Below, one piece after another: positions 47,032 to 53,037 of a DNA stretch of 64,000 nucleotides; the stretch's first letter is position 1, and the number at the start of each line of letters is the position of its first letter. The position numbers and the translations under genes are program-made. The stretch comes from an uncultured Chloroflexia bacterium (GTDB lineage: Bacteria; Chloroflexota; Limnocylindria; Limnocylindrales; CSP1-4), in NCBI GenBank assembly GCA_963734535.1, contig CAVTHS010000010.1:160001-224000 (forward strand), given 5' to 3'. The notes beneath the pieces were generated by a model. It was not told the DNA's origin. It saw only the letters and a list, made by a program, of their open reading frames with translations, and did not search any database.

Positions 47032-47859
47032 TCAGCCGGTCGCACGCCCGAAGATGCGATCGTGGTTCGCCACGAGCTGCTCCCCCAGCTCGTCAGGATC
47101 CTCGCCGCGTCGCTCAGCGACCCAGCGCGCGGTCACGCGCACCCATTCGGGCTCGTTGCGTCGGCGTGGGGCGCCGGGCGGCGAGAGGTACGGCGCGTCG
47201 GTCTCGACGAGGATGCGATCCGGCGGCACGAGCCGAACGCTCTCGGCGGTGGCCTCCTCGCCGCGCCTGAACGCGAGGCCCGAGACGCTGACCGCGCACC
47301 CGAGCGCCAGCGCGGCCGCCACGTAGTCGACCGGGCCCGAGACGGAGTGCAGGATCGCGGGCGGACGGTCTCCGAACGTCGCGTGCGCGGCGGGCGTCCC
47401 AAGCCCGGCCGCCTCGAGCTCGGTCACGAGCGCATCCTGGGCATCGCGCTCGCCGGCTTTCGACCGGCAATGGAGGATGGCCGGCTTCCCGGTCGCGAGC
47501 GCCAGCACGAGGCCCCGCCGCAGGTTCTCGAGCTGGGCCGCGGCAGGCGAGAACATCCGGTCGAAGTCGAGCCCCGTCTCTCCGATGGCCACGACGCGCG
47601 GATCCCCCGCAAGGGCCACGACCCGAGCCCACGCGGCCAGATCCGTCTCCGCGGCGGCGTGTGGATGAACCCCGACCGCGACGCCTGCGAGGCCGGGAAA
47701 GTGGTCGATGAGCGCCAGCGCGGCGATCGACGACGCCTCGTCCCAGCCCGGGACGAGGATCCGCTCGACGCCGGCGGCCTGGGCCGCCCCGATGACCTCG
47801 GCAGCATCACTCGCGAACTGCTCGGCGTTCAGGTGGCAGTGGCTGTCGACGAGGCGCAC
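47032..47859 (-). CDS. TatD-family nuclease/hydrolase
   Basis: DSHCH, GVHPH, IGETGLD, ETDAPYL; follows metG as commonly seen. Confidence 0.92.
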   Translation of the reverse strand: MRLVDSHCHLNAEQFASDAAEVIGAAQAAGVERILVPGWDEASSIAALALIDHFPGLAGVAVGVHPHAAAETDLAAWARVVALAGDPRVVAIGETGLDFDRMFSPAAAQLENLRRGLVLALATGKPAILHCRSKAGERDAQDALVTELEAAGLGTPAAHATFGDRPPAILHSVSGPVDYVAAALALGCAVSVSGLAFRRGEEATAESVRLVPPDRILVETDAPYLSPPGAPRRRNEPEWVRVTARWVAERRGEDPDELGEQLVANHDRIFGRATG

Positions 47860-47861
47860 GG

Positions 47862-49520
47862 TCAGCCGGGCTCGGCGCCCGCGACCTCCGCGGATTCTGT
47901 CTCCAGGCGCGGGAAGAGGGGCACGGCGGCCGTCAGCGTGCCGGCCTCTCCGGCGCGGGCCCCCCAGCGGAGCTCGTCGAGGATGGCCGGGCCGCCGTTC
48001 CCGTCCGCGGCGTAGGCGAAGGCGTGGCCGAGCTGGTGCATGACCCGGGGCGCCAGGCCTGGCATCACGGGGGCCACGGCAAGCGCCACGAGCCGGCACG
48101 CCTCGACGAGGTCGCCCAGGACCCCCCGCATGCGCTCGGAGCTGCCTTCCTCGCCGGCCTTCACCGCCCGCGCGATGACCCACGGCTGCTCCGCCTCGAC
48201 GAACCGGTTGCCCGCTCCGACGAACTCCCAGAGCGCGGCGAGCGCCTCGTGGAGGAGGCATCCCTCCAGCTTCGCCACGAACAGGTCGCGGACCGCGGGC
48301 CAGGCGGCCCCGAGCGGGCTGTCCGCCGCATCGCGCGGCGCGGGCCGTTCCCCGCCGAGGTAGCGCCCCGCCATGGACACGGTCCGGTTGACGAGGTTCC
48401 CGAAGTCATTGGCGAGGTCCGCGTTGTACCGGCGCGTGAAGGCGTCCCACGAGACGTCGCTGTCGCGGTCGAAGCCGGCCTCGCGGAGCGCGACATAGCG
48501 CGCCCCGTCGCTCCCGAACGCGGCTACGAAGTCGATCGGGTCGAGGAAGTTGCCCCGGCTCTTGCTCATCCGCTCACCCTGGGCCAGCAGCCAGCCGTGG
48601 ACCCACACCCTGCGGGGCGCCTCGAGCCCCGCGGACCAGAGCATGGCCGGCCAGAAGATCGTGTGGAAGCGGGCGATATCCTTGCCGATGACGTGGAGGT
48701 CGGCGGGCCACCAGCGCGCGAACGCCACGGGATCATCCGGGAACCCCGCCCCGGTGATGTAGTTGATGAGCGCGTCGTACCAGACGTAGATCGTGCCACC
48801 GGCCGGGTCCCAGGAGCCGTCCGCGCGCTGCGCGCTGCTCCCGTCGGGAAGGAGCGGGAACGGGATCCCCCACCCCGAATCGGGCCGGCTGATCGAGAAG
48901 TCCTCGAGGCCACCCCGGATGAATCCCAGCATCTCGTTGCGTCGGTGGTCGGGTTGGACGAGGTCGGGATTGTCCTCGAACCAGCGCTCGAGGCGCTCCT
49001 GGTAGGCCGAGAGCCGGAAGAACCAGTTGCGCTCGGTGAGCCACTGGAGCGGCACGTCGGGGTGGTTCGGGCAGATCGTGCCGGCGGCCGTCTCCGTGAC
49101 GTCGGTCGCGTTCCTGAATCCCTCGTTCGGGCAGTACCAGCCCTCGTAGGTGCCAACGTAGATGTCGCCGTTCGCATGCGCGCGGCGGACCATCTCCTGG
49201 GTGGCCCGAACATGGTCCGCATCCGTGGTCCGGATGAACCGGTCCGGGCTGATGAGGAGGGCGTCCTCGGCCGCCTGAAAGAGAGCGACCTGTGCGTCGA
49301 CGAAGTCGCGCGGCGAGCGTCCTTCCTCGGCGGCCCGCATGGCGATGTTGACGCTGTGCTCGTCGGTCCCGGTCTGGAAGCGGGTCGGGACGCCGCACAT
49401 GCGATACCAGCGCGCCAGGGCGTCCGCCCCGATCACCTCGTAGAGCGTGTGCAGACCTGGCCGGTTGTTCGCATACGCGATCGAGGTCGTGATCGAGAAG
49501 CGGTCGCGAAGTTCGGGCAT
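47862..49520 (-). CDS. metG: Methionyl-tRNA synthetase (short form, non-canonical HIGH motif)
   Basis: TGTDEH, FIRTT, YVWYDALINY, IGKDIARFH..WPAML, RMSKS, LANDFGNLVNR; HIGH position reads GLHT. Confidence 0.95.
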   Translation of the reverse strand: MPELRDRFSITTSIAYANNRPGLHTLYEVIGADALARWYRMCGVPTRFQTGTDEHSVNIAMRAAEEGRSPRDFVDAQVALFQAAEDALLISPDRFIRTTDADHVRATQEMVRRAHANGDIYVGTYEGWYCPNEGFRNATDVTETAAGTICPNHPDVPLQWLTERNWFFRLSAYQERLERWFEDNPDLVQPDHRRNEMLGFIRGGLEDFSISRPDSGWGIPFPLLPDGSSAQRADGSWDPAGGTIYVWYDALINYITGAGFPDDPVAFARWWPADLHVIGKDIARFHTIFWPAMLWSAGLEAPRRVWVHGWLLAQGERMSKSRGNFLDPIDFVAAFGSDGARYVALREAGFDRDSDVSWDAFTRRYNADLANDFGNLVNRTVSMAGRYLGGERPAPRDAADSPLGAAWPAVRDLFVAKLEGCLLHEALAALWEFVGAGNRFVEAEQPWVIARAVKAGEEGSSERMRGVLGDLVEACRLVALAVAPVMPGLAPRVMHQLGHAFAYAADGNGGPAILDELRWGARAGEAGTLTAAVPLFPRLETESAEVAGAEPG

Positions 49521-49615: not shown

Positions 49616-51886
49616 TCAGTGACGGAAGTGGCGCGTCCCCGTGACGAGCATGGCCGCCCCGGATGCGTCCGCGACCGCGGTCACCTCGGCGTCCCGGAGC
49701 GAGCCACCCGGCTGGACGAAGGCGGTGACGCCCGCCGCCAGGCAGGCCTCGACCGCGTCGGGAAACGGGAAGAAGGCATCCGAGGCGACGGCGGCGCCCG
49801 CCACTCGTTCCGGCCCGAGGATCGAGCGGGCCTTCTCGACGGCCTGGCGGGCCGCGTCCACCCGGCTCGTCTGGCCCGATCCGAGGCCGATCAGCATCCC
49901 GTCGCGCACGAGGACGATGGCGTTGCTCGTGACGCCCCGGGCCAGGCGCCAGGCGAGGTCGAGGTCCGCCCGTTCGGCGTCCGTCGGAATACGGCGCGTC
50001 ACGCAGGCCCAGCCGCCCGGGTCGTCGGGGATCGTGTCCGCCGCGGTGACGAGGACTGCGCCCCCGGCCGTCCGGAAGGACCCGCGGCGCTCGGGCCAGG
50101 GCGGATCTCCCGCGACTCCCAGCCGCCGGTCGACGACAAGGCGCAGGTTGGGCCGCCGCGCCAGGACGGCGCGGGCATCGGCGTCGAAGCCGGGCGCGAC
50201 GACGATCTCCAGGAAGATGCTCGCGAGCTGCTCGGCGACGGTGCCGTCCATCTCGCGGGTCACTGCGACGACGCCCCCGAACGCGCTCACCGGGTCGGCC
50301 GCGAGCGCGTCATCCCAGGCCGCGGCGAGGCTCCCCCGCTCCGCCGCTCCGCACGGGTTCATGTGCTTGACGATGACGCAGGCGGGTCCCCGGAGCGCCC
50401 GCCCGAGCGCCGCGGCTGCCGACGCGTCGAGGATGTTGTTGTAGCTGAGCGGCTTGCCCTGCAGCGGCGCCTCGCCGGTGGCGAACGGGCCGTCCGCGTC
50501 GGTCCCACCGGGCCGCCGGTAGCGCGCCGCGGGCTGGTGCGGGTTCTCGCCGTAGCGGAGCGTCTCGACCTTCTCGAGGCCGATGACGAGCGCCTCGGGA
50601 AACGGGTCGACGCTCCGCGGGAGGCCTGGCTCGTCCGGCATCGCGATCCCCGCCCGGTCCAGCTCGCATGGCAGGACGTCGGCGATCCGCGCGTCGTACG
50701 CGGCCGTGTGCCGGAACGCCTCGACCGCGAGCGCGGCCCGCAGGCCGGCCGGGATGCCCCCGGGTACGTCGAGCGCCTCGAGGATCGCGGGGTAGCGCGC
50801 GGGCGAGGTCACGATCGCCACGTTCCGCGCGTTCTTGGCCGCCGCCCGAACCATGGACGGGCCGCCGATGTCGATCTCCTCGACGAGGCCGTCGAGGTCC
50901 AGGTCGTGGCGGGCCGCGCGCTCGGCGGCCTGGCCGAACGGATACAGGTTGACGACGACGAGCTCGAACGGCTCGATCGCCGCGGCCGCGAGCTGCCGGC
51001 GATGGTCGGGGTTCCGAGCATCGGCGAGGATCGCCGCGTGGACCCGCGGGTGGAGGGTCTTCACCCGCCCGTCGAGCATCTCCGGGAAGCCGGTGACCGC
51101 GCCGACGTCCGTGACCGGCATGCCCGCCGCGCGGAGAGCCCGCGCCGTCCCGCCCGTGCTGACCAGCTCGAAGCCGCGGCGCACGAGTCCCCGGGCGAGG
51201 TCCACCAGCCCCGCCTTGTCCGAGACCGACAGGAGGGCCCGCCGCGAGGGCGGAAGGGCCGCCTCGGCTCGGGCGGCGTCGATCGTGACGCGCCGCCCGT
51301 CCACGTCGAGCGCACCACCGAGGAGGAGCGCCACTGCTCGGGGGAGGACCCGGTGCTCCACCGCGTGGAGCCGCTCGAGAAGCGCCGCCTCGTCGTCGCC
51401 GGGCCGGACGTCGACCGCCTCCGCAAGCACGATCGGGCCTCCGTCGAGCGACGCGTCGACCAGGTGCACGGTCACGCCGGTGACCGCCGCGCCGGCCGCC
51501 AGGGCATCACGGACCGCGTGCGCGCCCGGGAAGCTCGGCAGGAGCGACGGGTGGACGTTGAGGATGCGTCCGGCGAACGCCTCCAGGAGCACTGGGCCCA
51601 CGAGACGCATGAAGCCCGCCAGGACGACCGCGTCGGTGCCCAGGGCACGAAGCGTCCCGGCGAGCGTGCGGTCAGCCGCTTCCCGCTCGGCCGGCTCGCG
51701 GGCGGCCAGGCCCGGAACCAGGGCCGTGTCGAGGCCCGCGTCTGCCGCCCACTCGAGCGCCGGGCAGGGCCGGTCGGAGAAGACGAGCACGATCCGGGCC
51801 GGGAGGGCGCCTCGCGCGATCCGGCCCTGGAGGGCTCGCAGGTTGCTGCCGCTGCCGGAGACGCCAATCGCGATCCGATCGCTCAC
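49616..51886 (-). CDS. purH: Fused PurN (GAR transformylase)-PurH (AICAR transformylase/IMP cyclohydrolase)
   Basis: N-terminal SGSGSNL, LAGFM, NVHPSLLP; from about residue 215 RALLSVSDK, GRVKTLHP, IDIGGP, LRYGENPHQ, RHFRH; single open frame. Confidence 0.92.
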   Translation of the reverse strand: MSDRIAIGVSGSGSNLRALQGRIARGALPARIVLVFSDRPCPALEWAADAGLDTALVPGLAAREPAEREAADRTLAGTLRALGTDAVVLAGFMRLVGPVLLEAFAGRILNVHPSLLPSFPGAHAVRDALAAGAAVTGVTVHLVDASLDGGPIVLAEAVDVRPGDDEAALLERLHAVEHRVLPRAVALLLGGALDVDGRRVTIDAARAEAALPPSRRALLSVSDKAGLVDLARGLVRRGFELVSTGGTARALRAAGMPVTDVGAVTGFPEMLDGRVKTLHPRVHAAILADARNPDHRRQLAAAAIEPFELVVVNLYPFGQAAERAARHDLDLDGLVEEIDIGGPSMVRAAAKNARNVAIVTSPARYPAILEALDVPGGIPAGLRAALAVEAFRHTAAYDARIADVLPCELDRAGIAMPDEPGLPRSVDPFPEALVIGLEKVETLRYGENPHQPAARYRRPGGTDADGPFATGEAPLQGKPLSYNNILDASAAAALGRALRGPACVIVKHMNPCGAAERGSLAAAWDDALAADPVSAFGGVVAVTREMDGTVAEQLASIFLEIVVAPGFDADARAVLARRPNLRLVVDRRLGVAGDPPWPERRGSFRTAGGAVLVTAADTIPDDPGGWACVTRRIPTDAERADLDLAWRLARGVTSNAIVLVRDGMLIGLGSGQTSRVDAARQAVEKARSILGPERVAGAAVASDAFFPFPDAVEACLAAGVTAFVQPGGSLRDAEVTAVADASGAAMLVTGTRHFRH

Positions 51887-53037
51887 CGTGCCACCTCCAC
51901 GTAGCGGGCCCCGCCGACGTCAGCCGCCGCGACGATCTCCCCGGCGACGCACGCGCCGATGCCCAACCGGATCGCGGCGGGAATCGCCGCGCGAACCCCG
52001 TCCGGCGGCATCGCGAGCACCATCCCGAGGCCACCGTTGAACGTCGCCCGGATCTCCGCGTCGTCGAGGGCGCCGATCCCGCCGAGGAGGCGCATGACCG
52101 AGGGCATTGGCCACGCCGTCGAATGGAGCCGCGCGGCGAGCCCGTCGGGCACGATCCGCGGCACCGCCCCCGCAAGCCCGCCGCCGGTCACGTGGGCGAT
52201 GCCGTGGACGTCGGCACCGGTCGCCCGGACCGCTTCCCGGATGGCGAGGACGGCCCGCGCGTAGATCCGCGTCGGGGTCAGCAGGACGTCCCGCAACGAC
52301 GCGTTCGCGTGCACCGCCTCGGGCGCTGCGCCGGCGGACCGGGCCGCGAGGAGGTCCGCGTACGGCCCGTCCAGGTCCAGGCCGGCCTCGGCCACGAGCC
52401 GTCGGACGAGCGAGAAGCCGTTGCTGTGCAGCCCGGAAGCCTCGAGCCCGACGAGCAGGTCGCCGGCCCGCACGGCCGACCCGTCGATGGCCTCGTCGCG
52501 CTCGACGACGCCCACGCACGTGGCGGCGAGGTCCAGGTCGGTCGACGCCATGGCCCCTGGGTGCTCGGCCGTCTCGCCACCGAGCAGCGCGCAGCCGGCC
52601 GCCCTGCAGCCCGCCGCGACCCCCGCGACGACCTCGGCGATCTCCTCGGGGACCAGCCGGCCGACCGCCACGTAGTCGAGCAGGAAGAGCGGCTCCGCGC
52701 CGGTGCAGACCACGTCGTCGGCGCACATCGCGACGAGGTCGATCCCCAGGCCGCCGAGCCCGCCGCCCGCCCGCGCCAGGGCCGTCTTCGTCCCGACCCC
52801 GTCCGTGGACGCCACGAGGAGGGGGCGACGATAGCCGGCGGGGATCTCGATGGCGCCGGCGAAGCCGCCCAGGCCGCCGACCACCTCCGGCCGTCGAGTG
52901 GAGGCGACGGCCGTGCGCATCAGGGTCACGGCACGCTCGCCCGCGTCCACGTCGACGCCGGCCGCCCGGTACGCCTCGCGGCGGGCAGGGGCCCGCATTC
53001 CGGAAGGCACGCCGCCGCCCCCATCAGCCACGGGCAC
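51883..53037 (-). CDS. purM: Phosphoribosylaminoimidazole (AIR) synthetase
   Basis: YRAAGVD, TDGVGTK, GGETAE, HSNGFSL, HVTGGG; start uncertain. Confidence 0.95.
   Translation of the reverse strand: MPVADGGGGVPSGMRAPARREAYRAAGVDVDAGERAVTLMRTAVASTRRPEVVGGLGGFAGAIEIPAGYRRPLLVASTDGVGTKTALARAGGGLGGLGIDLVAMCADDVVCTGAEPLFLLDYVAVGRLVPEEIAEVVAGVAAGCRAAGCALLGGETAEHPGAMASTDLDLAATCVGVVERDEAIDGSAVRAGDLLVGLEASGLHSNGFSLVRRLVAEAGLDLDGPYADLLAARSAGAAPEAVHANASLRDVLLTPTRIYARAVLAIREAVRATGADVHGIAHVTGGGLAGAVPRIVPDGLAARLHSTAWPMPSVMRLLGGIGALDDAEIRATFNGGLGMVLAMPPDGVRAAIPAAIRLGIGACVAGEIVAAADVGGARYVEVAR

What the first reader, a model, noticed from the sequence alone, without database searches (positions are those of the whole stretch)
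49446..49457. MetRS with a swapped class-I signature: GLHT instead of HIGH
Seen: the N-terminus reads IAYANNRP-GLHT-LYE where MetRS normally has Y.N..P-HIGH/HLGH-AY. His and Gly are exchanged between motif positions 1 and 3. The second signature is RMSKS and the Zn knuckle is reduced (CPNE...CPNH). The rest of the ORF is intact and sits in the usual metG-tatD context, so it looks like a housekeeping copy. Established, from memory: a similar 1/3 swap (GxHH-type) occurs in mupirocin-hyper-resistant type-2 IleRS. Inference: a lineage-specific active-site rewiring of MetRS that may alter ATP/adenylate binding or give resistance to an adenylate-mimic inhibitor.
Basis: partly seen in the sequence, partly recalled or inferred. 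Interest (0 to 1): 0.72.

Follow-up and report, generated by a model that had tools for sequence, protein, structure and literature searches.

The report
Methionyl-tRNA synthetase with swapped signature motif
The only methionyl-tRNA synthetase found in this Chloroflexota genome has the key histidine of its ATP-site signature two residues further along than usual, a rewiring shared by its whole bacterial class and so far described only for a mupirocin-resistant isoleucyl-tRNA synthetase.

Summary
Window 47862-49520 (-) encodes a 552-aa MetRS whose class-I signature reads G22-L-H-T25 (49446-49457) where relatives have H-x-G-x.

It is not an error. All 30 relatives read, and about 200 genomes of the same class, carry [G/A/P]-[LVI]-H-[T/S/H/Y/F], with synonymous codon variation at each motif codon and dN/dS of 0.05-0.22. 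It is the only MetRS found in the genome.

Thr at position 4, the C-x-x-E...C-x-x-H knuckle and DEHS are common in the wider subfamily, so they are ordinary. The new part is the exchange of positions 1 and 3.

A second Chloroflexota family holds both states (HLGF/HLGY and ALHY/ALHH). The tree needs at least two changes of state (AU p 0.0018). The other Met-AMP contact residues are kept, and the AlphaFold model is a confident MetRS fold.

Best reading (0.75): an active housekeeping MetRS in which His24 takes over the role of the canonical first histidine, as crystal structures showed for GXHH IleRS2. The inhibitor-resistance idea remains untested. My literature searches found no description of this in MetRS. 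I class it as a new variant of a known kind.

The parts
47862..49520 (-). metG: 552-aa methionyl-tRNA synthetase, the only MetRS found in the genome (stop codon included)
   Evidence: ORF and translation. PF09334 at 2e-86 and TIGR00398 at 386.4 bits, above the 336.35 cut-off. AlphaFold2 pLDDT 94.7 and pTM 0.93. Foldseek top hits are 2x1l and 6ax8 with TM 0.85/0.92. Whole-genome PF09334 search.
49446..49457 (-). Swapped class-I signature G22-L23-H24-T25 (canonical H-x-G-H), at the N-terminal tip of the first Rossmann helix
   Evidence: The model helix starts at residue 23 and the block pLDDT is 96. Ungapped alignment to PH[IV]GHAYE. Conserved in 30 of 30 relatives with synonymous codon variation.
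49437..49439 (-). Glu28, equivalent to MtMetRS Glu24, which binds the ribose 3'-OH; retained
   Evidence: Alignment. The contact is described in PMC6038951. E is present in all 57 swapped rows.
48558..48572 (-). Second signature R317-M-S-K-S321 (KMSKS variant; the catalytic second Lys is kept)
   Evidence: First residue is R in 43 of 57 swapped rows against 7 of 99 canonical rows, with only 2-3 independent contrasts.
49122..49133 (-). Knuckle half C130-P-N-E133 (second Cys replaced by Glu)
   Evidence: C-x-x-E is also the commonest form in the canonical outgroup, so this is ordinary for the subfamily.
49062..49073 (-). Knuckle half C150-P-N-H153
   Evidence: C-P-x-H is common in the outgroup.
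47032..47850 (-). tatD-family hydrolase directly downstream of metG. Context only; the exact start was not determined
   Evidence: ORF. PF01026 at 3.4e-57 over residues 1-267 of the 271-aa stretch tested.

Best explanation
This is the working housekeeping methionyl-tRNA synthetase of a Chloroflexota bacterium. Near homologues are labelled Candidatus Limnocylindrales. In its ATP-site signature the histidine has moved from motif position 1 to position 3, and glycine has moved the other way.

Shown here:
- The exchange is real.
- It is fixed across the class under purifying selection.
- It lies in an otherwise intact MetRS active site and fold.
- No second MetRS was found in the genome.
- The swapped and canonical states have interconverted at least twice in this MetRS clade.

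Inferred, by analogy with the IleRS2 GXHH crystal structures:
- The imidazole of His24 reaches the place normally occupied by that of the first histidine, which contacts the adenine/ATP and stabilises the transition state of methionine activation.
- Gly22 vacates that space.
- Position 4 (Thr here) is not needed as a histidine in this subfamily, because many canonical relatives also lack it.

The enzyme therefore activates methionine and charges tRNA-Met with a single, relocated signature histidine. What selected the exchange is unknown. The evidence fits a change tolerated in a permissive MetRS background at least as well as it fits an adaptive one.
For: Identity and integrity:
- The AlphaFold2 model has pLDDT 94.7 and pTM 0.93. 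It matches the M. smegmatis and M. tuberculosis MetRS structures at TM 0.85/0.92.
- The Met-AMP contact residues listed for MtMetRS (PMC6038951) are kept in all 12 rows of the window's order and nearly all other swapped rows. They are I14, Y16, E28, D53, W247, A250, L251, N253, Y254, G279, D281, I282, H308, G309 and K320.

Sole copy:
- PF09334 over the whole genome finds one MetRS. The other hits are longer Leu/Val-type or other class-I enzymes.
- In the 41 genomes (the window's own included), 37 have a strong match of this type. 4 incomplete genomes have no MetRS match at all. Only G005 has a second MetRS, and it looks like a proteobacterial contaminant.

Selection:
- His at position 3 is present in 57 of 57 swapped rows.
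- All four motif codons vary synonymously.
- dN/dS is 0.05-0.22 in 10 pairs.

Spread:
- Class sample: 209 of 401 genomes match a context pattern, and all 150 listed rows read G-[LVI]-H.
- Family f4 has [PA]-L-H-S in 20 of 20 N-termini read and in 16 of 16 genomes.
- Family f3 has GLHH in 50 genomes and GLHY in 4.

Interconversion:
- Family f19 has 22 HLGF, 1 HLGY, 1 QLGF, 5 ALHY and 1 ALHH among 30 loci.
- The trees need 3 changes, at least 2 of them on well-supported branches.
- The AU test rejects a single swapped clade, p 0.0018.

Precedent: in IleRS2 the N-epsilon-2 of the third His of GXHH sits where that of the canonical first His sits, and activity is only mildly affected (PMC10485003).
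Against: - No biochemical data exist for any of these enzymes.
- I could not obtain model coordinates, so the position of the His24 side chain is not shown.
- The same exchange abolishes activity in IleRS1 (PMC10485003), so tolerance depends on the background and cannot be assumed.
- Unlike IleRS2 GXHH, the window's motif also lacks the fourth His. In MtMetRS that His binds the alpha-phosphate.
- One canonical-type relative reads QLGF, with no histidine in the motif at all (L095). This hints that the signature histidines may matter less in this subfamily.
- At least 4 genomes of family f3 carry only a different, canonical ~600-aa MetRS, so the swapped enzyme can be replaced.
- The genome is 89.9% complete with 7.1% contamination. 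A second MetRS in the missing part is not excluded for this genome alone.
- My screen found no consistent compensating substitution.
Confidence: 0.75

Rival explanations
1. The exchange was selected because it makes MetRS insensitive to a natural inhibitor that occupies the adenylate/ATP site, as GXHH makes IleRS2 hyper-resistant to mupirocin. The enzyme is active either way, so this rival concerns the cause of the change.
For: - In IleRS2 the exchange of positions 1 and 3 raises the Ki for mupirocin about 200-fold or more, because the third-position His clashes with the drug (PMC10485003).
- The state flips between close relatives in family f19, as might be expected under patchy selection.
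- The same genomes also carry a GXHH-type IleRS.
Against: - No natural MetRS-specific inhibitor turned up in my search. One search listed 3 papers, none about one by title or abstract. I recall none either.
- The trait is fixed across a whole class, including ~1.1-Mb streamlined genomes. That looks more like ancient inheritance than an ongoing arms race.
- The IleRS motif is GIHH in 4 of 4 f19 genomes whatever their MetRS state, so the two do not co-vary.
- No biosynthetic or resistance context was seen beside the gene. Its neighbours are purine genes and tatD.
Confidence: 0.13
2. The signature is simply degenerate in this MetRS subfamily. The enzyme works without help from any motif histidine, and His at position 3 plays no catalytic part.
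For: - Position 4 is not His in 43 of 99 canonical rows.
- One relative reads QLGF.
- Position 1 can be G, A or P.
Against: - Position 3 is His in 57 of 57 swapped rows, in all 150 listed rows and in all rows.
- CAC and CAT both occur at that codon, which indicates strong selection on the residue itself.
- Every row with Gly at position 3 has His at position 1, except the single QLGF row.
Confidence: 0.07
3. It is an inactive or repurposed MetRS-like paralogue, and a canonical MetRS elsewhere does the housekeeping work.
For: - The genome is only 89.9% complete.
- MetRS-like pseudo-synthetases exist in other lineages. The earlier notes listed describe some, but they concern a different kind of protein.
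Against: - One MetRS in the genome.
- No canonical second copy in relatives apart from one probable contaminant.
- A full-length anticodon-binding domain and intact substrate contacts.
- dN/dS of 0.05-0.22.
- The metG-tatD context.
Confidence: 0.03
4. It is a sequencing, assembly or alignment artefact.
For: None found.
Against: - The same motif occurs in 30 of 30 independent assemblies and in about 200 genomes.
- Public contigs of other runs agree, differing only by synonymous changes at the motif.
- The HMMER alignment across the motif has no gaps.
Confidence: 0.01

Closest known systems
Type-2 isoleucyl-tRNA synthetase (IleRS2) with the non-canonical G/AXHH motif (Brkic et al., Nat Commun 2023, PMC10485003; passages read)
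   Same: - A class Ia synthetase in which signature positions 1 and 3 are exchanged: G or A at position 1, His at position 3.
- The exchange is tolerated in a natural housekeeping enzyme.
- It arose more than once, and natural reversion is reported.
- Family f3 of the window's class even has the identical G-L-H-H form.
   Different: - A different enzyme family: MetRS, not IleRS.
- The window's motif also lacks the fourth His (GLHT), so a single histidine remains.
- Position 1 can also be Pro (family f4).
- No inhibitor or resistance phenotype is known.
- In that paper 'MetRS' occurs 0 times and 'methionyl' twice. It calls the exchange 'adopted exclusively in IleRS2'; in the passage read, the contrast drawn is with IleRS1.
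Mycobacterial MetRS1 (M. smegmatis 2X1L; M. tuberculosis 6AX8/5XET; PMC6038951)
   Same: - The closest solved structures: phmmer 2.9e-124, about 40% identity, TM 0.85/0.92.
- The same domain order.
- A single knuckle without a full Cys4 metal site.
- The Glu after the motif and the other Met-AMP contacts are conserved.
   Different: - They carry canonical H-[IV]-G-H. His18 contacts adenine N7, His21 the alpha-phosphate, and Gly20 packs on the adenine.
- In the window's enzyme these three positions are G, T and H.
- They have KMSKS, not RMSKS.
Canonical H-x-G-[T/F/Y/S/N] MetRS of the same subfamily (unnamed representatives such as P0129, P0133, P0136, P0144; family f19 HLGF enzymes)
   Same: - 42-53% identical.
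- The same P-x-L-x-[T/F/Y]-x-Y-E context, C-x-x-E...C-x-x-H knuckle and DEHS.
- Position 4 is already non-His.
   Different: His is at position 1 and Gly at position 3. The window's clade has them exchanged.

Membership tests
Methionyl-tRNA synthetase (metG; Pfam PF09334, NCBIfam TIGR00398) | Profile score above the curated cut-off | tested here: met
   PF09334 scores 290.6 bits against a cut-off of 20.1. TIGR00398 scores 386.4 against 336.35. The full-length equivalog NF008900 scores 486.4, below its cut-off of 598.
Methionyl-tRNA synthetase (metG; Pfam PF09334, NCBIfam TIGR00398) | Rossmann catalytic domain with CP insertion, KMSKS/stem-contact domain and helical anticodon-binding domain | tested here: met
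   The AlphaFold2 model has pLDDT 94.7. The best Foldseek hits shown (ranks 1-50) are all MetRS chains, with TM 0.85/0.92 to 2x1l and 6ax8 over about 540 aligned columns.
Methionyl-tRNA synthetase (metG; Pfam PF09334, NCBIfam TIGR00398) | Canonical class-I HIGH signature (H-x-G-H/T, with Gly at position 3) | tested here: not met
   The motif reads G-L-H-T. The sequence signature is not met in its canonical order. A histidine is present two residues away.
Methionyl-tRNA synthetase (metG; Pfam PF09334, NCBIfam TIGR00398) | KMSKS signature with the second lysine | tested here: met
   R-M-S-K-S at residues 317-321. K320 is kept in 12 of 12 rows of the window's order.
Methionyl-tRNA synthetase (metG; Pfam PF09334, NCBIfam TIGR00398) | Methionine- and adenosine-binding residues as in MtMetRS (Ile10, Tyr12, Asp49, Trp228, Ala231, Leu232, Asn234, Tyr235, Gly261, Asp263, Ile264, His290, Gly291) | tested here: met
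   The equivalents I14, Y16, D53, W247, A250, L251, N253, Y254, G279, D281, I282, H308 and G309 are all present. The contact list is from PMC6038951. I mapped the residues by motif register.
Methionyl-tRNA synthetase (metG; Pfam PF09334, NCBIfam TIGR00398) | Catalyses Met-AMP formation and charges tRNA-Met | not testable with these tools
   Needs enzyme assays or complementation.
Class-I synthetases with an exchanged signature (the G/AXHH type defined for IleRS2) | Gly or Ala at position 1 and His at position 3 | tested here: met
   G22 and H24. In relatives, position 1 is G, A or P and position 3 is always H.
Class-I synthetases with an exchanged signature (the G/AXHH type defined for IleRS2) | His retained at position 4 | tested here: not met
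   Thr25 in the window. His at position 4 occurs only in family f3 (GLHH) and in one f19 row (ALHH).
Class-I synthetases with an exchanged signature (the G/AXHH type defined for IleRS2) | Member of the IleRS2 clade | tested here: not met
   It is a MetRS. The genome's own IleRS is a separate 1127-aa gene with GVHH.
Class-I synthetases with an exchanged signature (the G/AXHH type defined for IleRS2) | The exchange confers inhibitor hyper-resistance | not testable with these tools
   Needs Ki measurements on the wild type and a revertant.

The most novel reading that the evidence does not exclude
The exchange is an adaptive and reversible switch. It protects MetRS of abundant uncultured Chloroflexota against an as yet undiscovered natural adenylate-site inhibitor, in parallel with mupirocin and IleRS2. 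The HLGF/ALHY polymorphism in family f19 would mark lineages with and without that pressure. A corollary is that a class-I synthetase can work with a single signature histidine placed at the 'invariant glycine' position.
Probability: 0.13. Interest if true: 0.85.

Novelty: new variant of a known kind. Interest (0 to 1): 0.62.

Why it matters
- HIGH is one of the two signatures that define class-I aminoacyl-tRNA synthetases, and its glycine is treated as invariant. The only described exception, GXHH in IleRS2, was called highly unexpected and was tied to antibiotic hyper-resistance.
- This finding shows the same exchange of positions 1 and 3 in a second synthetase family. There it is the only MetRS found in the genomes of this class that carry it. 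In the window's order the fourth histidine is gone as well.
- Close natural relatives carry either state (HLGF and ALHY within one family). That gives enzymologists a ready-made pair for asking what makes an active site tolerate the exchange, a question that mutagenesis of IleRS did not settle.
- It also matters for motif-based annotation and for MetRS inhibitor design, since compounds that lean on the glycine or histidine positions may not bind these enzymes.

Tried and rejected
- **Mistyped pattern.** It had two extra N, gave 0 of 401 and is void. I corrected it after a local test.
- **Covarying residues.** The screen found only positions 22 and 24 themselves, plus a few inconsistent columns.
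- **Arg at the first KMSKS position.** It is R in 43 of 57 swapped rows against 7 of 99 canonical rows, but this rests on 2-3 independent contrasts (sign test p 0.5). Family f4 keeps K. The LeuRS of the same GC-rich genome also has RMSKS. I do not claim coupling.
- **Whole-collection scan (185,579 species) for the swapped motif with a non-E/D/G/A/V residue three places after it.** It gave 13 hits and none is a MetRS. The scan deliberately excluded Glu-type contexts, so it says nothing about those.
- **Sample of 401 genomes of the phylum of a Nonomuraea record, using the Glu-type pattern.** It gave 5 hits and none is MetRS-like, by my reading of the rows.
- **Model coordinates.** None are available to scripts, so I made no side-chain geometry or ligand superposition.
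- **RNA evidence.** Two metatranscriptome runs hold short contigs 88-99% like parts of the gene. One of them (X19, record 16) reaches codons 24-25. Contigs in an RNA library do not show transcription. Uncovered parts of the gene mean nothing.
- **AU test.** The first run did not finish. The repeat did. I named the tested group after seeing the tree, which weakens the p-value.
- **Earlier notes of this scan on MetRS.** They concern motif-less pseudo-synthetases and do not bear on this gene.
- **Second MetRS of G005.** It is a 704-aa E. coli-like enzyme beside an Mrp/ApbC-like gene. I set it aside as probable MAG contamination, judged by its look only.
- **Complex prediction.** Not used, because no protein-protein claim is made.
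- **Supplementary files of the two papers.** They were closed. The IleRS alignment and tree in the supplements of PMC10485003 might show whether other synthetases were inspected.
Full report
**1. What is there**

Window 47862-49520 on the minus strand is an open frame of 552 codons. Pfam calls it a class-I (M) synthetase (PF09334, 2e-86). NCBIfam's metG model TIGR00398 scores 386.4 bits against a cut-off of 336.35. The full-length equivalog NF008900 stays below its cut-off, at 486 against 598.

Residues 14-28 read IAYANNRPGLHTLYE. The flanking Pro, the hydrophobic second residue, the Tyr and the Glu all stay in register. Only His and Gly have changed places, and position 4 is Thr.

RMSKS lies at residues 317-321, CPNE at 130-133 and CPNH at 150-153. 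Directly downstream is a TatD-family gene. Upstream are a PurN-PurH fusion and PurM.

**2. Not an error, and not a spare copy**

- In the 41 genomes (the window's own, 24 of its genus and 16 of a second family of the same order), 37 have a strong match to this protein. 4 incomplete genomes have none.
- I read 30 loci, and 30 of 30 have P-G-[LV]-H-T.
- All four motif codons vary synonymously among relatives. For example, Gly is GGC, GGT, GGA or GGG and His is CAC or CAT.
- Ten pairwise dN/dS values lie between 0.05 and 0.22.
- Contigs of other public runs laid on the gene differ at or beside the motif only at 49452 and 49458. Both changes are synonymous.
- A PF09334 search of the whole 3.2-Mb genome (89.9% complete, 7.1% contamination) finds this gene and otherwise only longer class-I enzymes. 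I read two of them: a LeuRS-like protein with HVGH and a ValRS with HLGH.
- Only one relative (G005) has a second MetRS. It is a 704-aa E. coli-like protein that I take for contamination.

**3. How far the trait reaches**

The tool gives group codes, not names. Near homologues are labelled Chloroflexota or Candidatus Limnocylindrales by their sources.

- **Class sample.** In 401 genomes of the window's class, a context pattern that allows either order matched 209. All 150 listed rows read G-[LVI]-H. By family the matches were f1 129/137, f2 15/16, f3 62/92, f4 0/153 and f5 2/2. Another 61 matches were not listed.
- **Family f4.** It failed the pattern only because it lacks the Asn and Pro that the pattern demanded. 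Its MetRS reads [P/A]-L-H-S in 20 of 20 N-termini read. Two of these are from genomes flagged unpublished. With a looser pattern it matched in 16 of 16 genomes.
- **Family f3.** It has G-L-H-H in 50 genomes and G-L-H-Y in 4. Three and one of these, respectively, are from unpublished genomes. Two further rows were chance hits.
- **Family f5.** It has G-L-H-F.
- **Replacement in f3.** At least four f3 genomes (G055, G094, G067, G044) lack the swapped enzyme. They carry only a ~600-aa canonical MetRS with HLGH, two CxxC knuckles and KFS[TS]S.
- **Outside the class.** A sample of 355 further genomes of the phylum gave 7 pattern hits, of which one (G753) is a MetRS.
- **Family f19, which holds G753.** It is mixed. 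Of 30 loci, 22 read HLGF (one from an unpublished genome), 1 HLGY, 1 QLGF, 5 ALHY and 1 ALHH. The states follow genera.
- **Library representatives.** Among the best 150 representatives of a 1.84-billion-protein library, 131 cover the motif. The 7 at 61% identity or more to the query are swapped. The 124 at lower identity have H-x-G-x.
- **Whole collection.** A scan of one genome from each of 185,579 species, for the swapped motif in non-Glu contexts, gave 13 hits and no MetRS among them.
- **Another phylum.** A 401-genome sample of the phylum of a Nonomuraea record, searched with the Glu-type pattern, gave 5 hits. None is MetRS-like.
- **Limit.** I therefore found the trait only in this Chloroflexota MetRS clade. 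Glu-type contexts in other phyla were sampled only thinly.

**4. What is ordinary**

- Position 4 is not His in 43 of 99 canonical rows of my alignment (T, F, Y, S, N or W).
- C-x-x-E...C-x-x-H and DEHS are frequent in the canonical outgroup.
- These features belong to the subfamily and not to the exchange.

**5. History**

I built trees with the motif and its neighbours (residues 20-28) left out.

Rows left out:
- 4 loci from unpublished genomes.
- 6 fragmentary loci.
- 18 of 30 f1/f2 loci and 12 of 21 f19 HLGF loci, to thin near-copies.
- 59 of 150 representatives that were fragments, outside 480-720 aa, or lacked the N-terminus.
- 1 row without a recognisable motif.

Results:
- FastTree on 156 rows and IQ-TREE (quick, LG+C20) on 55 rows both need 3 changes of state, at least 2 of them on well-supported branches.
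- IQ-TREE joins the class's two MetRS lineages and family f19 into one clade (SH-aLRT 99). The three-way split inside it is unresolved.
- An AU test rejects the best tree that holds all swapped rows together (delta lnL 96, p 0.0018). I named that group after seeing the tree, which weakens the p-value.
- The two states have therefore interconverted. The unrooted tree cannot tell repeated gains from one gain followed by reversions.
- Each conversion needs about four nucleotide changes.

**6. How it probably works**

In the closest solved enzyme, M. tuberculosis MetRS, the contacts are as follows (PMC6038951; passages and Table 3 read):
- His18 (position 1) bonds adenine N7.
- His21 (position 4) bonds the alpha-phosphate.
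- Gly20 packs against the adenine.
- Glu24 binds the ribose 3'-OH.

The window's enzyme keeps the Glu (E28) and the other contacts. These are I14, Y16, D53, W247, A250, L251, N253, Y254, G279, D281, I282, H308, G309 and K320 of RMSKS. They are kept in all rows of the window's order and almost all other swapped rows.

The AlphaFold2 model is confident (pLDDT 94.7, pTM 0.93). GLHT sits at the start of helix 23-41, and the model superposes on 2X1L and 6AX8 at TM 0.85/0.92.

For IleRS2, Brkic et al. report the following (PMC10485003; passages read):
- The first His stabilises the transition state of activation.
- Gly makes room for the adenine.
- In GXHH enzymes the N-epsilon-2 of the third His takes the place of that of the first His.
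- IleRS1 is killed by the same exchange.

I infer the same relocation here. His24 is invariant in every swapped sequence, which is what a functional residue would show. I could not examine side-chain geometry, and I found no consistent compensating substitution.

Arg at the first KMSKS position accompanies the exchange in most lineages, but not significantly so.

**7. Rivals**

- **Resistance to a natural inhibitor** is possible but unsupported. I found no natural MetRS inhibitor (listing only). The trait is ancient and fixed even in ~1.1-Mb genomes. The neighbouring genes are housekeeping genes.
- **A merely degenerate motif** is contradicted by the invariance of His at position 3.
- **An inactive paralogue** and **an artefact** are contradicted by sections 2 and 6.

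**8. Novelty**

- The string GXHH occurs in one paper of the searched library. In that paper 'MetRS' occurs 0 times and 'methionyl' twice.
- Searches for MetRS with a non-canonical HIGH motif listed nothing on this, judged by title and abstract. The search for Limnocylindria with tRNA synthetase found no paper.
- Earlier notes of this scan hold nothing on it.
- I recall from memory that the PROSITE class-I pattern allows T at position 4 but fixes Gly at position 3. No call checked this.
- I class the finding as a new variant of a known kind: a genuine MetRS with the IleRS2-type exchange, here reduced to a single histidine.

**9. Aside**

The same genome's IleRS lies outside the window. It is 1127 aa and its best model is ileS at 609 bits, just under the cut-off. 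It reads G-V-H-H, the published IleRS2 form. Four f19 genomes have GIHH whatever their MetRS state.

Noticed in passing
window 49616-51886 (-): A single 756-aa ORF fuses PurN (Formyl_trans_N, residues 4-185) to PurH (MGS plus AICARFT_IMPCHas). PurM follows at 51883-53037.
   Followed up: partly
G000 contig C10, about 85.7-89.1 kb (outside the window); locus L132:859-4242 (-): The genome's IleRS is 1127 aa. Its best model is TIGR00392 at 609 bits against a cut-off of 621, followed by MupA/MupB, and it has a DUF5915 tail. It carries the published non-canonical G-V-H-H signature. Four genomes of family f19 have G-I-H-H whether their MetRS is canonical or swapped (L135-L138).
   Followed up: partly
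L064:943-2736 (+), L067:934-2736 (+) (genomes G055, G044; also G094, G067): Some genomes of family f3 lack the swapped MetRS. They carry only a ~600-aa canonical MetRS, 30-34% identical, with WPYTNGPRHLGH, two CxxC knuckles and KFSTS/KFSSS in place of KMSKS. This looks like replacement by another MetRS type.
   Followed up: partly
L095 (genome G591, family f19): One otherwise canonical-type MetRS reads Q-L-G-F (CAG for the first residue), so the signature has no histidine at all. It could be a true variant, an intermediate state or a consensus error of the assembly.
   Followed up: no
L068:1459-3573 (+) (genome G005, contig C9): A second MetRS in one relative. It is 704 aa and E. coli-like, with PIHIGH and a C-terminal tRNA-binding domain, and lies beside an Mrp/ApbC-like gene. 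It is probably contamination of that assembly.
   Followed up: partly
loci L112-L131 (families f3 and f5), alignment position equal to window residue 55: In 17 of 20 rows with GLHH, GLHY or GLHF, the otherwise nearly invariant His of the G-T-D-E-H motif is Asn (GTDENA/GTDENG). In 5 rows of the window's order it is Tyr or Phe.
   Followed up: no
window about 48800-48860 (-), MetRS residues about 222-243: The window's MetRS has an insertion of about 15 residues (around DGSSAQRADGSWDPAGG) relative to the mycobacterial structures. Part of its order shares it. This accounts for its 552 aa against about 520 in other families.
   Followed up: no
genome G120 (family f3), contigs C108 and C191: Two different GLHH MetRS N-termini occur in one assembly. 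This may be strain mixture or a real duplication.
   Followed up: no
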